From the UHGV virus genome UHGV-0324772: DNA of 8,054 nucleotides; one strand, given 5' to 3'. The stretch comes from a virus. A program made the translations under genes and the position numbers. Under the pieces are notes generated by a model. It searched no databases and was not told the DNA's origin. It worked only from the letters and a program-made list of their open reading frames with translations. Shown piece by piece: positions 1,220 through 6,195 of this stretch (its first letter is position 1; each line of letters begins with the position of its first letter).

Positions 1220-1254
1220 GCCGGAAAATTTATTTTTTTCCGGCCTTTTTTATT
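1220..1254 (+). terminator. GC-rich hairpin followed by T-tract (intrinsic-terminator-like)
   Basis: gccggaaaa (1220-1228) pairs with ttttccggc (1236-1244), then tttttt (1246-1251). The U-tract follows the hairpin only in plus-strand orientation. Confidence 0.45.
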
Positions 1255-1262
1255 GGCAATAT

Positions 1263-1712
1263 TTAAAACGGAATATCATCTCCCCATTGTTCATTATCTC
1301 CCACTGGTGGATGGCTTCCTTGCTGATCTGCCTGTTGTTTTGCTCTGTTCAGTGCGTCAGTAGCCTGACCCTGTTGACCTTTTTTGCCGCCCGGTCGCAC
1401 CGTTCGCGCACTGATTACGCTGTCTGCGATAACCTGCCAGCCCTGCCGCGTTTCACCGTTCTGTCCAGTCCACTGGCTCACCTGCATATTACCCGCCACG
1501 CTCAGGAGTTCGCCTTTGTGATGCTTTGCCAGCGCGTCGGCTTGTCTGCCAAACGCCAGGACAGATAACCACATCGTCGCCTGACCGTCATCCGACTGAC
1601 TGCAGGGCAGTGATACCGCCATACGCGCCAGCGTCATGGGGGTGCCCTTGCTGGTCTGTTTTGTCTGCGGGTCGTCCACCAACCGCCCGTAAACTGATAT
1701 TTGCGCCGTCAT
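1263..1712 (-). CDS. ssb: Single-stranded DNA-binding protein (SSB)-like
   Basis: 149 aa. N-terminal region resembles the SSB OB fold (ISVYGRLVDDPQ versus E. coli VILVGNLGQDPE; WLSVLAFGRQADALAKHHKG versus [21 protein letters not shown]), Gly/Gln-rich linker, and the hallmark acidic C-terminal tail ending DDIPF. Start overlaps the upstream ORF stop by 4 nt. Confidence 0.7.
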   Translation of the reverse strand: MTAQISVYGRLVDDPQTKQTSKGTPMTLARMAVSLPCSQSDDGQATMWLSVLAFGRQADALAKHHKGELLSVAGNMQVSQWTGQNGETRQGWQVIADSVISARTVRPGGKKGQQGQATDALNRAKQQADQQGSHPPVGDNEQWGDDIPF

Positions 1713-1954
1713 GCTGCCTGCTCTCCGGACTTAATATTGATTGTTGTCACTTCCTCCGCTTCAGCAATCTCCCGTTCGGTCAGAGTGGCAAAGTTTGCAG
1801 CCGCCGTTGTCATGAATGCGCTAATCAGTTCGGGATGTGCTTTCGCGTATCCTTCCCCGGCGTTGCGGTCGATGATTTTTATCGACACCCTTAACCAGTG
1901 TTCCGTCAAATCAAGGGCGTGCGATTGTGATTTTTTTGTGTGCTTCGCTGTCAT
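1709..1954 (-). CDS. Hypothetical protein (81 aa), translationally coupled to the SSB-like gene
   Basis: Track ORF on the same strand as neighbours; its stop overlaps the ssb start (ATGA). No recognisable motif; weak RBS. Confidence 0.4.
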   Translation of the reverse strand: MTAKHTKKSQSHALDLTEHWLRVSIKIIDRNAGEGYAKAHPELISAFMTTAAANFATLTEREIAEAEEVTTINIKSGEQAA

Positions 1955-2000: not shown

Positions 2001-2228
2001 TTCACCTGTTCACCTTTTGATATTTTCTCTTTTAATTCATAATGTTAATGGGTGAACAGTTTCACAAAAACTATTCACCAACTGTTCACCACTGTTCACC
2101 CTTGAAGCTCAATAAACAATCAAAAAGGTGAACAGTGAATAGTTTGGTGAACAGTTCATAAATAACTGTTCACCCTATAATATACTGATATAAAAGATAT
2201 TTATGACAGGGTGAACAGTGGTGAACAG
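2001..2228. repeat. P4-type type-I iteron cluster (TGTTCACC), putative cis replication region / origin bound by alpha protein
   Basis: Nine perfect octamers: TGTTCACC at 2007, 2083, 2093, 2167 and the complement GGTGAACA at 2051, 2127, 2146, 2210, 2220, plus degenerate copies (2001-2006, 2072-2079). An AT-rich stretch lies at 2176-2205. Sits immediately downstream of the alpha gene end, as crr does in P4. Confidence 0.8.
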
Positions 2229-2686: not shown

Positions 2687-2687
2687 A

Positions 2688-3015
2688 GTGGTTGGCTTTT
2701 CGCTGATTATCATGCCGGATATGACCCGCTACGCTGGTGATGGGGCAGGGATTAAGGCCATTACAGGCGGTGACAAGGTGGCAATTGACCCGAAACACAA
2801 AGCCCCCTATTCAACGCGTATTCCGGCAGTAGTGCTGGCGGTTAACAATAACGCCATGTCATTCAGTGACCGCAGCGGGGGGATCTCACGTCGTCGGGTG
2901 ATATTCAATTTTTCGGAAGTTGTACCGGAGAACGAACGCGATTCGATGCTGGCGGAAAAAATAGAAGGTGAGCTGGCGGTAGTGATTCGTCATCTGCTTA
3001 CACGGTTTGTTTTTT
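2688..3015 (+). CDS. P4 alpha-type helicase-domain fragment on the opposite strand to the rest of alpha (probable misassembly or inversion)
   Basis: Track ORF 2688..3017. ITGGDKVAIDPKHKAPYSTRIPAVVLAVNNNAMSFSDRSGGISRRRVIFNFSEVVPENERDSMLAEKIEGELAVVIRHLLTRF matches the region after Walker B in P4/D5-type helicases. Its 3' end (2976-3013) is the reverse complement of 2649-2686 with one mismatch. The stop codon is formed partly by adapter bases. Confidence 0.6.
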
Positions 3016-3073
3016 AATGATACGGCGACCACCGAGATCTACACTCTTTCCCTACACGACGCTCTTCCGATCT
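3016..3073 (+). other. Illumina TruSeq universal (P5) adapter, 58 nt, exact: sequencing/assembly artefact
   Basis: AATGATACGGCGACCACCGAGATCTACACTCTTTCCCTACACGACGCTCTTCCGATCT read directly at 3016-3073, preceded by TTTTT (3011-3015). Confidence 0.97.
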
Positions 3074-4064
3074 ACCAGCAGAGGGGGATTCGCTGGATGA
3101 ATAACTGCCAGTCGTACCGGTTCGCCAGCACCATGAATAATGCCGCCAGTACGCGATCTGCCTTGCGGTCATTCTCAGCCACCGAACGGCGCAACCACTT
3201 CCAGAAATTCGGCGCATGTGTTGCCAGCGTTTCCCCCTCTGCTGGTGGGCTGAAAGGTAATTCACTGGCAATTAACAACCAGTCGTTTTTGTTATGCTCC
3301 CGAAAATTACCAGTTCTGGTATCAAATACCCCGTTACTGAATCCAATCAGGTTACGGGCTGTATTCCCCATTACAGGCAAACTTAACTTCATGGTATCTA
3401 CCGCCGATTTAATAGCGTTCTGCGAATAGCTGATCTCCGCATCAATGAAAATCTGCGCCATAGCACGCTGTAACTCTTTATCCTGAACCGGCTCCCATAC
3501 AACGCCGTTGTAATGATGAACGGTGTCAGAGTCGGCATTGATTGCCAGTTCGCCGCCGTAATGTGCAAGGAGAACTTCACCGCGCTGGCTGGCCCCCATC
3601 TGATTCAACGCCAAAGATGAAGCACGCTCGTCATTTTTGCGCTCTGCCTTCTTCACTGGCAGTTCAATCACCAGACTTTCCCCATGCTCCGCTTCAGCTT
3701 TTAGGCCGACAAGGCGCGGAGTCCAGTCTTCAGGCTCTCGATCAACAAAGCTACGGTAACAACGTGCTTCCTTTACGCCTGCAATAGCAAGTAATGTCGC
3801 AACCTTCGTCAGACTTTTCTCTGCAATCTTTCCGGCACGATAAACACGCACATAATGACGGCCTTCATCGATAATTTGCATATCATCCAGGTTTTCCAGT
3901 TGTTCCGTACCCAGAATGACTGGTGGTGTATCATCTGCTGCAATATGCTTACCTGCCCATTCATTCCATTCTTTTGCATGGCTCCAGGCATCACTGCCAG
4001 CAAAAATGATGACTTCCGTCATTTTGTCGCGCGGTTGGTATTTTAAGTTCGGAGCACGTTTCAT
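3072..4064 (-). CDS. P4 alpha-type primase/helicase, N-terminal primase region (reading frame cut off at the adapter junction)
   Basis: Track ORF, 330 aa. Call rests on continuity with the alpha helicase and C-terminal fragments, position in the operon and the adjacent P4-type iterons; an early EVIIFAGSDAW segment is primase-like but not a confident motif match. The terminal stop (3072-3074) is created by adapter bases, so the real protein continues. GGAGG RBS 6 nt upstream; start overlaps the upstream stop (ATGA at 4061-4064). Confidence 0.75.
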   Translation of the reverse strand: MKRAPNLKYQPRDKMTEVIIFAGSDAWSHAKEWNEWAGKHIAADDTPPVILGTEQLENLDDMQIIDEGRHYVRVYRAGKIAEKSLTKVATLLAIAGVKEARCYRSFVDREPEDWTPRLVGLKAEAEHGESLVIELPVKKAERKNDERASSLALNQMGASQRGEVLLAHYGGELAINADSDTVHHYNGVVWEPVQDKELQRAMAQIFIDAEISYSQNAIKSAVDTMKLSLPVMGNTARNLIGFSNGVFDTRTGNFREHNKNDWLLIASELPFSPPAEGETLATHAPNFWKWLRRSVAENDRKADRVLAALFMVLANRYDWQLFIQRIPLCW

Positions 4065-4996: not shown

Positions 4997-5076
4997 TTGC
5001 ATTTTCCTAAACACGTATGTAATGTGTCATCACACATTAACACATTACATCGGGTGTAATTGACGTGTCAACACAC
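4997..5076. promoter_or_regulatory. Divergent promoter region with repeated operator-like half-sites (ACACATTA / TGTAATGT)
   Basis: Plus strand: TTGCAT (4997-5002), 17 nt, TAATGT (5020-5025). Minus strand: TTGACA (complement of 5066-5071), 18 nt, TAATGT (complement of 5042-5047). Inverted repeat atgtaatgtgt (5017-5027) / acacattacat (5040-5050), plus acacatta (5032-5039) and gtgtaatt (5054-5061). Confidence 0.4.
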
Positions 5077-5244
5077 AAAAATCAAAGACGTGGTAATCCT
5101 CCGTTCCAGTTTCGGTTAGATCCTGAGTTGAGGGAGTTGATGGAGCAAGCACAGCAAGTAGATGGAGACGAATCTTTAGCAGCCTGGATTAAAAGGATTA
5201 TTCGCAAAGAACTACAGCAACGCGGATATGAAGTCAAAATTTAA
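5065..5244 (+). CDS. Small ribbon-helix-helix (Arc/CopG-like) putative transcriptional regulator; start uncertain (GTG 5065 or ATG 5140)
   Basis: Below the track's length cut-off. Frame open from 5041 to TAA at 5242-5244. Translation ...PPFQFRLDPELRELMEQAQQVDGDESLAAWIKRIIRKELQQRGYEVKI has a beta-strand then two helices, as in RHH proteins. Divergent from the alpha operon, convergent with the TIR-like gene. Confidence 0.4.
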   Translation: MSTHKNQRRGNPPFQFRLDPELRELMEQAQQVDGDESLAAWIKRIIRKELQQRGYEVKI

Positions 5245-5319: not shown

Positions 5320-6195
5320 CTAAACTGCGTAACCAGTAGCTCGCAAGTCTTTAATAATGCTATATGCTACTTCTTCAATAGAAGAATTGAATTTTTTATA
5401 AATAAGACCATTCAAATCACTTGGAATCACTACATCACCTGTGTATAGACAACAAACCTTAGAACGACCTAATTTCCCTACGAAATAACCAAATTCAAAC
5501 ATTACATTTGGTCGTGCACGTAACTCCTTTTCTCTTTCATTATCAGGTAAAGAGTCTTGCGGCAATAAATAAGCGATCTCATCAGGTGTGAGAAGAATGA
5601 ATGCGAAACCAACATCACTATTTGCTTCAAATTTCTCAATCACTGTCTGGCCTACATCAGCTTGCCTATGGAGAACAATAGGTTCTAAGCCAATTTCTCT
5701 TAAAAACACCTCTAAGTTGGTTTTTGATATTTCATCTCTTCCATGAACAATGAATACTTTTTTGGTTTTTACCGCTGAACTCTGAGGTACTTCAATATTT
5801 TCTTCAACAACTTTGGAAGATATAGGAATTAACTCCAGTCGCTCCATAATCGACTCTAGTTTTCTTATCTTACTCTGGAGTTTACGCGTAGCCTCACTGA
5901 TTTTTTCTCCCAAGGAAGTCTCGTACAATGAAATAACACCAAATGCCCCACCTTCATATTCTTCTTTGAAATCATCATTTGTGAAACTACGCTTCAGTAG
6001 CTCAGCATTAAAATCACTCCATTTCCTGTAATCAGCATTAAACAGCTCCAAGTCACTATTGTTATTTATGCTTTTCTGTAGGAGTAATAATCCTTTTTGA
6101 ATTCTGTCTTGAATTTTATCTTTCATATCATCTCTTGATATGATTAGTTCACAAACAGTTTTCATTTCTACGCTATTTTTTTTTCGAGTAGCCAT
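5320..6195 (-). CDS. TIR-like (COG4271/PF10137-type) domain protein with an unassigned N-terminal domain; candidate anti-phage NADase effector
   Basis: Track ORF, 291 aa. Residues about 145-291 carry the pattern I associate with TIR-like nucleotide-binding proteins: KKVFIVHGRD, GLEPIVLHRQ, TVIEKFE, VGFAFILLTPDE, RARPNVMFEFGYFVGKLGR, IPSDLNGLIY. N-terminal about 140 aa is helical with no TM segment or known motif. Good RBS (AAGGGTG, 5 nt, ATG). Visibly AT-rich compared with flanks. Confidence 0.7.
   Translation of the reverse strand: MATRKKNSVEMKTVCELIISRDDMKDKIQDRIQKGLLLLQKSINNNSDLELFNADYRKWSDFNAELLKRSFTNDDFKEEYEGGAFGVISLYETSLGEKISEATRKLQSKIRKLESIMERLELIPISSKVVEENIEVPQSSAVKTKKVFIVHGRDEISKTNLEVFLREIGLEPIVLHRQADVGQTVIEKFEANSDVGFAFILLTPDEIAYLLPQDSLPDNEREKELRARPNVMFEFGYFVGKLGRSKVCCLYTGDVVIPSDLNGLIYKKFNSSIEEVAYSIIKDLRATGYAV

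What the first reader, a model, noticed from the sequence alone, without database searches (positions are those of the whole stretch)
1263..1954. SSB-like gene with DDIPF tail coupled to an 81-aa ORF next to the iterons
An SSB homologue retaining the C-terminal DDIPF protein-interaction tip lies just beyond the iteron cluster, translationally coupled (ATGA) to an unknown 81-aa ORF. Canonical P4 has no ssb to my knowledge, so this may be an added replication accessory or belong to the neighbouring prophage remnant.
Basis: partly seen in the sequence, partly recalled or inferred. Interest (0 to 1): 0.35.

Follow-up and report, generated by a model that had tools for sequence, protein, structure and literature searches.

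The report
Satellite-encoded SSB beside its replication origin

Summary
ORF 1263-1712(-) is a 149-aa SSB: it passes the curated Pfam and NCBIfam cut-offs, its predicted OB fold matches solved SSBs, and it ends in DDIPF. It overlaps by ATGA an 81-aa ORF (1709-1954, -). Nine exact TGTTCACC iterons lie at 2007-2227.

The element is not P4. It is a Gram-negative PICI of the published "helper-embedded" type, inserted in capsid gene E of a lambdoid prophage. The neighbouring capsid gene belongs to the satellite, so the "prophage remnant" idea is refuted.

This SSB clade is confined to Enterobacterales. In most of 23 species-level loci it sits directly after the satellite's replication initiator and an iteron-bearing origin. 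Four different initiator architectures were seen. It is under purifying selection (dN/dS 0.05-0.24).

The pair matches 1589 of 5426 complete E. coli genomes, where it is already annotated "SSB". One paper lists SSB among PICI replication genes. No functional study was found.

ORF81 belongs to phrog_1231, has no Pfam family and is predicted to be two long helices. It holds this slot only in Escherichia and close relatives, so it is not an obligate SSB partner.

The most likely role is an accessory SSB that coats satellite ssDNA and recruits host replisome proteins through a host-identical tip. That role is inferred, not shown.

The parts
1263..1712 (-). ssb: 149-aa single-stranded DNA-binding protein. 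OB fold at residues ~3-101, a 45-aa linker, and the acidic tip GDDIPF.
   Evidence: Pfam and NCBIfam above curated cut-offs. AF2 model plus Foldseek hits to solved SSBs. Equivalents of Ec W54/F60/W88 are conserved and the tip residues D145 and F149 are invariant. dN/dS 0.05-0.24.
1709..1954 (-). ORF81: small protein of unknown function (phrog_1231), predicted as two long helices. Its stop codon overlaps the ssb start.
   Evidence: phrog_1231 E 2.2e-48, no Pfam, NCBIfam or PADLOC hit. 159 close homologues, almost all Escherichia/Shigella/Citrobacter. AF2 pLDDT 67 with helices 2-32 and 41-77. No PDB fold match. dN/dS 0.13-0.58.
1709..1712 (-). ATGA stop/start overlap between ORF81 and ssb (candidate translational coupling).
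   Evidence: Read directly from the sequence. The same 4-nt overlap is annotated in L001-L004. It also occurs with an unrelated upstream ORF in L010.
2007..2227 (.). Replication origin: 9 exact TGTTCACC iterons in both orientations within the AT-rich primase-ORF81 intergenic gap (1955-2241, GC 0.33).
   Evidence: The octamer is identical to the annotated 'ori type 1 repeat' of P4 ori/crr. Its position directly 3' of the initiator gene matches P4 crr and published PICI origins (PMC6092414).
2242..2673 (-). C-terminal (Pox_D5, origin-binding) part of the satellite replication initiator. The rest of the gene runs to 4064 but is broken in this window by an assembly artefact.
   Evidence: Pfam Pox_D5 and D5_N. 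The intact 606-aa gene in strain W284 has D5_N-DUF5906-Pox_D5. Its residues 149-596 are 50.6% identical to P4 alpha.
1220..1244 (.). GC-rich hairpin in the 217-bp spacer between ssb and the satellite's capsid gene. It may mark the end of the ORF81-ssb unit.
   Evidence: One search lists it as terminator-like on the + strand only. On the gene strand no T-run follows the stem, so its function is uncertain.

Best explanation
The gene encodes a satellite-borne SSB that is a conserved accessory of the replication module of Gram-negative phage-inducible chromosomal islands (here a helper-embedded PICI). The module order is: replication initiator (here an SF3 helicase related to P4 alpha), then the iteron origin (TGTTCACC x9), then ORF81, then ssb, all on one strand. 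No terminator-like site was detected on the gene strand between the initiator and ssb. Proposed mechanism, inferred and not shown: when the helper prophage is induced, the island excises, the initiator melts the origin, and the island replicates to high copy. The island's own SSB coats the exposed single strands. Its C-terminal tip, the same DDIPF as in host SSB, recruits host SSB-interacting proteins such as the Pol III chi subunit, DnaG and PriA. This would let satellite forks form without depending on a host SSB pool that the helper phage is also using. ORF81 is co-expressed through an ATGA overlap. It is lineage-restricted at this position and is probably an optional modulator rather than an obligate SSB subunit.
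For: Shown here:
- SSB family membership and fold.
- Three of the four ssDNA-stacking aromatic residues of E. coli SSB are conserved (W48, F54, W81 = Ec W54, F60, W88). The tip residues D145 and F149 are invariant across genera, while part of the linker varies.
- Purifying selection, dN/dS 0.05-0.24.
- Synteny. In 20 of the 23 enterobacterial species-level loci, and in every E. coli locus inspected, ssb lies immediately downstream of the initiator on the same strand. The 180-1040 bp gap carries locus-specific iterons in nearly all of them.
- Four different initiator architectures precede it: D5_N-DUF5906-Pox_D5, AAA_25 RepA, DUF927, and Zn-ribbon-Toprim-DUF927.
- int, alpA and DUF4222 lie upstream, as in PICIs.
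- The clade is absent from deposited phages: best identity is 32% or less and ORF81 has no match. Only 3 of 1975 places are on plasmids.
Literature: PICI origins lie directly 3' of the initiator gene (PMC6092414). SSB genes colocalise with Primase and the mapped origin and were placed in a 'Replication' category (PMC10111431).
From my own knowledge: P4 alpha-driven replication in vitro needs host SSB and Pol III holoenzyme but not DnaB, DnaC or DnaG (Diaz-Orejas et al. 1994, not retrieved here). The SSB C-terminal tip is the docking site for SSB-interacting proteins.
Against: - No experiment on any PICI SSB was found.
[quoted passage not shown] No PICI ssb is mentioned, though I did not check whether one lies in the cloned segment. 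The SSB is therefore probably accessory, not essential.
- In locus L012 the ssb is truncated by a deletion while the island otherwise looks intact.
- The equivalents of Ec W40 and the tetramer-interface His55 are not conserved, so oligomeric state and binding mode may differ.
- Foreign SSBs can trigger defence systems such as Retron-Eco8, AbpAB and DARNA. Carrying one has a cost that a simple 'extra supply' model does not explain.
Confidence: 0.65

Rival explanations
1. The SSB mainly acts in conflict rather than in replication. Its host-identical tip would titrate or redirect host SSB-interacting proteins, or helper functions that dock on the SSB tail (for example lambda-type recombinases). 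This would interfere with the helper, or shield satellite ssDNA from SSB-sensing or ssDNA-targeting defences.
For: The tip is strictly host-like while the OB core is only 23% identical to host SSB. Satellites commonly interfere with their helpers and carry defence hotspots; a PDC-S35 TIR gene lies in this island. Non-host SSBs are recognised by several defence systems.
Against: The invariant position right after initiator and ori, across four initiator types, points to replication. There is no PADLOC match. No interference phenotype has been mapped to this gene in the papers read.
Confidence: 0.15
2. The SSB serves late-stage DNA processing rather than origin firing. Candidates are recombination-dependent or rolling-circle concatemer formation needed for packaging into helper or satellite capsids.
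For: It sits at the boundary between the replication zone and the late/packaging zone, which holds capsid, TerS, PerC or ProQ genes depending on the island. An E. coli model PICI is reported to be packaged as phage-length concatemers (PMC10111431).
Against: The downstream neighbour varies widely while the upstream ori is constant. No recombinase is encoded next to it.
Confidence: 0.1
3. The gene belongs to the neighbouring prophage remnant, or is decaying cargo without function in the satellite.
For: Phage structural genes flank the region in the window.
Against: The flanking capsid and decoration genes are the satellite's own, and the prophage's capsid gene is the one split by the island. The same ssb is found in islands at tqsA, tRNA-Pro, cspD and other sites with no prophage nearby. 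dN/dS is 0.05-0.24. No close homologue exists in 50,697 phage records.
Confidence: 0.03

Closest known systems
Gram-negative PICI replication module (pri/rep-ori of EcCICFT073-type islands; HE-PICI '11capE' of E. coli NRG857c)
   Same: The layout is unidirectional: int-alpA-...-DUF4222-initiator-iteron ori. The island lies inside capsid gene E of a lambdoid prophage and carries its own E homologue. An SSB gene colocalises with primase and ori, as catalogued in PMC10111431.
   Different: Nothing essential differs. The window copy is mis-assembled in the primase and capsid genes. The SSB itself has never been functionally tested in these elements.
E. coli chromosomal SSB (and the near-identical F-plasmid SSB)
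   Same: OB fold, three of the four stacking aromatic residues, a disordered linker, and the identical DDIPF tip.
   Different: Only 23% identity over the core. It is 149 aa against 178 aa. The Trp40 and His55 equivalents are absent. The linker is shorter, not Gly/Pro-rich, partly conserved and predicted helical at low confidence.
Satellite phage P4 replicon (alpha, ori, crr)
   Same: The iteron octamer TGTTCACC is identical. The iteron cluster lies directly downstream of the initiator gene, like crr. The helicase/ori-binding part of the initiator is 50.6% identical to alpha.
   Different: P4 has no ssb and no ORF81 homologue. No psu, delta, sid or epsilon homologue was found here. The first 148 aa of the initiator do not match the alpha primase domain.

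Membership tests
Bacterial/phage SSB (PF00436, TIGR00621) | OB-fold domain scoring above the curated family cut-offs | tested here: met
   PF00436 60 bits (cut-off 26); TIGR00621 68.3 bits (cut-off 53.95)
Bacterial/phage SSB (PF00436, TIGR00621) | Three-dimensional OB barrel superposable on solved SSBs | tested here: met
   AF2 model with strands across residues 3-101. Foldseek probability 1.00 and target TM 0.7-0.84 to S. aureus, B. subtilis, Pseudomonas and Klebsiella SSBs. Whole-chain pLDDT is only 69 because the tail is disordered.
Bacterial/phage SSB (PF00436, TIGR00621) | ssDNA-stacking aromatic residues (E. coli W40, W54, F60, W88) | tested here: met
   W48, F54 and W81 align with W54, F60 and W88 and are invariant in the clade. 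The W40 equivalent is absent. Three of four are met.
Bacterial/phage SSB (PF00436, TIGR00621) | Acidic C-terminal tip ending in Pro-Phe that docks partner proteins | tested here: met
   The protein ends GDDIPF. D145 and F149 are invariant. Observed variants are DNIPF, DGIPF, DDVPF, DEIPF and DD-F.
Bacterial/phage SSB (PF00436, TIGR00621) | Homotetramer that binds ssDNA with high affinity | not testable with these tools
   The equivalent of the interface residue His55 is Leu49. Biochemistry is needed.
Gram-negative PICI / helper-embedded PICI | Unidirectional int, alpA and pri/rep with the ori immediately 3' of the initiator, in an island of about 10-20 kb | tested here: met
   Window gene order. 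The intact colinear island in strain W284 spans about 11 kb. The definition is taken from PMC6092414 and PMC10111431.
Gram-negative PICI / helper-embedded PICI | [quoted passage not shown] | tested here: met
   In W284 the island splits the major capsid gene of a DLP12-like lambdoid prophage, with pseudogene halves on each side, all on the same strand.
Gram-negative PICI / helper-embedded PICI | Helper-dependent induction, replication and packaging | not testable with these tools
   This needs induction experiments.
P4-like satellite | Core genes psu, delta, sid and epsilon together with alpha, alpA and int | tested here: not met
   A tblastn of eight island proteins against P4 matched significantly only the alpha C-part, ORF88/alpA and int. 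No gene of the island in W284 is annotated as psu, delta, sid or epsilon; P4's own psu, delta, sid and epsilon proteins were not searched against the island.

The most novel reading that the evidence does not exclude
ORF81 and the satellite SSB form a co-translated functional pair. In this reading ORF81, a member of an undescribed family of small helical proteins of mobile elements with the motif GEGYAKxHPELIAAFMxTAA, gates the SSB. It might load the SSB at the melted origin, or mask it from SSB-sensing defence systems. The host-identical tip would let a satellite whose SF3 initiator has no recognisable primase domain borrow DnaG and Pol III. If so, the pair would be a satellite-specific adaptor between a foreign helicase and the host replisome.
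Probability: 0.12. Interest if true: 0.5.

Novelty: already known. Interest (0 to 1): 0.2.

Why it matters
The finding matters little as a discovery. The protein is already annotated as SSB in RefSeq, and the pair matches about 29% of complete E. coli genomes. SSB has also been listed among PICI replication genes. The useful result is a clarification. The gene belongs to the satellite, not to the prophage or to a P4-type element. It is a constant partner of a highly variable initiator/origin cassette across Enterobacterales. Its role has never been tested. A deletion experiment in a tractable PICI would show whether satellites need their own SSB to out-replicate their helper.

Tried and rejected
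- P4 membership: rejected. P4 has no ssb or ORF81, and no psu, sid, delta or epsilon homologue was found here.
- Prophage-remnant origin: rejected by synteny at several chromosomal sites.
- ORF81 as an obligate SSB partner: rejected. My ORF81 profile hit nothing in the 23 non-E. coli loci. L010 has an unrelated ORF in the same slot. Distant ORF81-family members sit in islands and phages without an SSB.
- ORF81 function by homology: nothing found. There is no Pfam, NCBIfam or PADLOC hit. The best PDB sequence hit has E 0.13, so no solved PICI packaging protein such as Rpp matched by sequence. No Foldseek match is better than E 4.5. Ten distant relatives also have no Pfam family.
- ORF81 as a P4 Cnr (ORF106) analogue: no similarity to any P4 frame.
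- Known defence-system component: no PADLOC match for SSB or ORF81.
- Non-coding RNAs and tRNAs in the window: none.
- Promoter and terminator scan of 1150-2300: counts are no higher than in shuffles, and no terminator-like site was found on the gene strand between primase and ssb.
- Literature: no functional work on a PICI SSB was found. The P4 in-vitro replication paper was not retrievable.
- Structure prediction of an ORF81-SSB complex was not possible, because the tool folds single chains only.

Full report
**Observation**

The window has a 149-aa ORF at 1263-1712 (-) ending WGDDIPF and an 81-aa ORF at 1709-1954 (-). Bases 1709-1712 read tcat on the + strand, which is ATGA on the gene strand. 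The stop codon of ORF81 therefore overlaps the start codon of the downstream gene.

The 149-aa protein is an SSB by every test available:
- Pfam PF00436 scores 60 bits against a gathering score of 26.
- TIGR00621 scores 68.3 bits against 53.95, with the match running to the last residue.
- PHROG 44 (SSB) matches at E 1.5e-37.
- Twenty-three solved SSBs match by sequence.
- An AlphaFold2 model has a beta barrel over residues 3-101. Its best Foldseek matches are all SSB crystal structures, with probability 1.00 and target TM 0.7-0.84.

Identity to E. coli SSB is only 23%. W48, F54 and W81 align with the DNA-stacking residues W54, F60 and W88. The equivalents of W40 and of the tetramer-interface His55 are not conserved.

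Just upstream, between ORF81 and the initiator gene, there are nine exact TGTTCACC octamers in both orientations at 2007-2227. Chance expectation is 0.23.

**What the element is**

The window is 99.9% identical to complete E. coli chromosomes. In strain W284 the colinear region is an island of about 11 kb. Its gene order is: int, alpA, TIR protein, a small YlcI-like ORF on the opposite strand, Icd-like protein, hypothetical, DUF4222, a 606-aa "primase", the iterons, hypothetical (ORF81), SSB, major capsid protein (lambda E family), head decoration protein (lambda D family), a second AlpA, hypothetical, then HEPN and DUF262 genes on the opposite strand.

The island is inserted inside the major capsid gene of a DLP12-like lambdoid prophage. 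The two halves of that gene are annotated as pseudogenes on either side.

This is the "helper-embedded PICI" described by the Williams laboratory, with prototype 11capE in E. coli NRG857c. That paper reports 201 elements at this same site in homologues of capsid gene E. [quoted passage not shown]

The capsid gene next to ssb is therefore the satellite's own.

**Relation to P4**

The P4 record (NC_001609) annotates crr directly downstream of alpha and labels TGTTCACC as the "ori type 1 repeat". The intact initiator from W284 has D5_N, DUF5906 and Pox_D5 domains. Its residues 149-596 are 50.6% identical to the helicase/origin-binding part of alpha. Its first 148 residues match nothing in P4 and no Pfam primase domain.

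P4 has no ssb and no ORF81 homologue in any frame. Among the eight island proteins compared with P4, only the initiator, alpA and int gave significant matches. No gene of the island is annotated as psu, delta, sid or epsilon. The element shares a replicon lineage with P4 but is not a P4-like satellite.

**How general the arrangement is**

The ssb-ORF81-iteron segment matches 1589 of 5426 complete E. coli genomes, almost always on chromosomes. It is annotated "single-stranded DNA-binding protein | hypothetical protein".

Three divergent E. coli examples show the same module, DUF4222-initiator-gap-ORF81-ssb with a 4-nt overlap, in different islands:
- a capsid-forming island at tqsA in O157:H7,
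- an island at tRNA-Pro whose initiator is an AAA_25 RepA-type helicase,
- an island at cspD carrying PerC, ProQ and TerS.

A pattern scan of one genome per species returned 23 enterobacterial loci, from E. albertii, Klebsiella, Enterobacter, Leclercia, Pectobacterium, Citrobacter, Rosenbergiella, Shimwellia, Edwardsiella, Atlantibacter, Scandinavium, Serratia, Erwinia, Budvicia and Raoultella. In 20 of them ssb lies immediately downstream of a replication initiator on the same strand, with int, alpA or DUF4222 upstream.

The initiators have four architectures. The gap before ssb carries iterons whose sequence differs from locus to locus in nearly all cases. The SSB is thus a constant partner of a variable initiator/origin cassette.

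The clade has no close relative in 50,697 phage records, where identity is 32% or less. It is under purifying selection, with dN/dS 0.05-0.24. The tip is conserved: D145 and F149 are invariant and most sequences end DDIPF.

Part of the linker, RPGGKxGQQGQATDALxRAKQQ, is unusually conserved for an SSB linker. It is weakly predicted to be helical.

**ORF81**

ORF81 matches phrog_1231 (unknown function) at E 2.2e-48. It has no Pfam, NCBIfam or PADLOC family.

Close homologues number 159 clusters, almost all from Escherichia, Shigella or Citrobacter. dN/dS is 0.13-0.58. The model is two long helices at modest confidence (pLDDT 67) with no significant structural neighbour.

An exhaustive profile search found 750 representative clusters of small proteins sharing the core motif GEGYAKxHPELIAAFMxTAA. 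Where context could be read, these sit in other mobile elements without an adjacent SSB:
- next to alpA and a DUF927 primase in an integrase island,
- next to an integrase,
- in a tailed-phage fragment.

Conversely, my ORF81 profile hit nothing in any of the 23 non-E. coli SSB loci. One E. coli island type has an unrelated 102-aa ORF overlapping ssb by the same 4 nt, with an ORF81 paralogue elsewhere in the island.

ORF81 is therefore a real gene, but an optional and lineage-restricted occupant of the slot between ori and ssb.

**Mechanism**

The following are shown: the protein is an SSB with a host-type tip, it is selected, and it is tied to satellite origins.

The following is inferred. After helper induction the island replicates from its own origin with its own helicase. 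Its SSB coats the displaced strands, and its DDIPF tip recruits host SSB-interacting proteins.

From my own knowledge, P4 alpha-dependent replication in vitro requires host SSB and Pol III holoenzyme. I could not retrieve that paper.

Against an essential role:
- The cloned EcCICFT073 replication region (rep gene plus ori) was enough for plasmid replication in E. coli, and that paper makes no mention of an SSB (PMC6092414).
- One island (L012) has a truncated ssb.

Rival readings are interference with the helper or with SSB-sensing defences, and a role in concatemer formation. Neither is excluded, but the constant link to the origin favours replication. Foreign SSBs are known triggers of Retron-Eco8, AbpAB and DARNA, so carrying one is not cost-free.

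**Novelty and score**

The gene is already annotated as SSB in RefSeq (for example WP_000126719.1). The gene family has been noted as part of PICI replication modules. What remains unknown is its function in satellites and the function of ORF81. I rate the finding as already known, with interest 0.2.

**Quality note on the window**

An exact 58-nt Illumina TruSeq universal adapter lies at 3016-3073 inside the initiator gene. Relative to the complete genome, 2687-3009 and 142-321 are inverted and roughly 126, 145 and 110 bp are missing. The broken primase and the truncated capsid and decoration genes of this window are therefore assembly artefacts. The stretch 320-2686, which contains the finding, is colinear and 99.87% identical to the reference.

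Noticed in passing
window 3016-3073 (+), with 2687-3009 and 142-321: An exact 58-nt Illumina TruSeq universal adapter is embedded in the initiator gene. Its translation gives the well-known spurious peptide NDTATTEIYTLSLHDALPI. Two adjacent or nearby segments are inverted relative to complete genomes, with about 126, 145 and 110 bp missing. The window is a mis-assembled contig, and the apparent primase disruption and capsid truncation are artefacts.
   Followed up: yes
whole window; L001 9139-20114: The island sits inside major capsid gene E of a DLP12-like lambdoid prophage and carries its own lambda E-like capsid gene and D-like decoration gene. This is the published helper-embedded PICI configuration (capE site). 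The window's right end, from about 7859, is the 5' fragment of the prophage capsid gene.
   Followed up: yes
window 5320-6195 (-): A 291-aa protein with a CAP12/Pycsar-type TIR domain lies between alpA and the Icd-like gene. It matches the PADLOC candidate single-gene defence system PDC-S35 (E 7e-67). It is probably the island's anti-phage cargo. In the intact island, a DUF262 gene (NsnA / PD-T4-2_A-like) and a HEPN gene lie at the other end, outside the window.
   Followed up: partly
window 3072-4064 (-); L001 14500-16320: The island's 'DNA primase family protein' has SF3 helicase and origin-binding domains (D5_N, DUF5906, Pox_D5). No recognisable primase domain was found. Its first 148 residues match neither P4 alpha nor any Pfam family, so how primers are made at this origin is unclear.
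   Followed up: partly
window 1709-1954 (-); proteins P0253-P0389: ORF81 is the Escherichia branch of a much larger undescribed family of proteins, mostly about 60-130 aa. The family has 750 representative clusters at 50% identity and no Pfam family. Its members share the motif GEGYAKxHPELIAAFMxTAA and are found in integrase/alpA/primase islands and in phage fragments from other bacteria.
   Followed up: partly
window 1263-1400 (-), SSB residues about 103-125: The start of the SSB linker (RPGGKxGQQGQATDALxRAKQQ) is conserved across genera, with R106, P107, G108 and G109 invariant. It is weakly predicted to be helical. SSB linkers are normally poorly conserved, so this may be a lineage-specific protein-binding site.
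   Followed up: no
window 5065-5244 (+): This is the only gene of the island in this window that is annotated on the + strand in W284. It encodes a 59-aa protein with weak YlcI/YnfO and Arc-like/VapB-like matches. An equivalent opposite-strand ORF is present in the other E. coli islands inspected. It may be a regulator.
   Followed up: no
L012 3037-3303; L013 7843-8004: There are natural variants of the module. One is an island in which ssb is truncated and fused to the ProQ-like gene by a deletion. Another is an E. albertii island in which the ORF81 slot holds a 53-aa ORF whose last residues (KTGEQTI) resemble the ORF81 C-terminus, as if it were a degraded copy.
   Followed up: no
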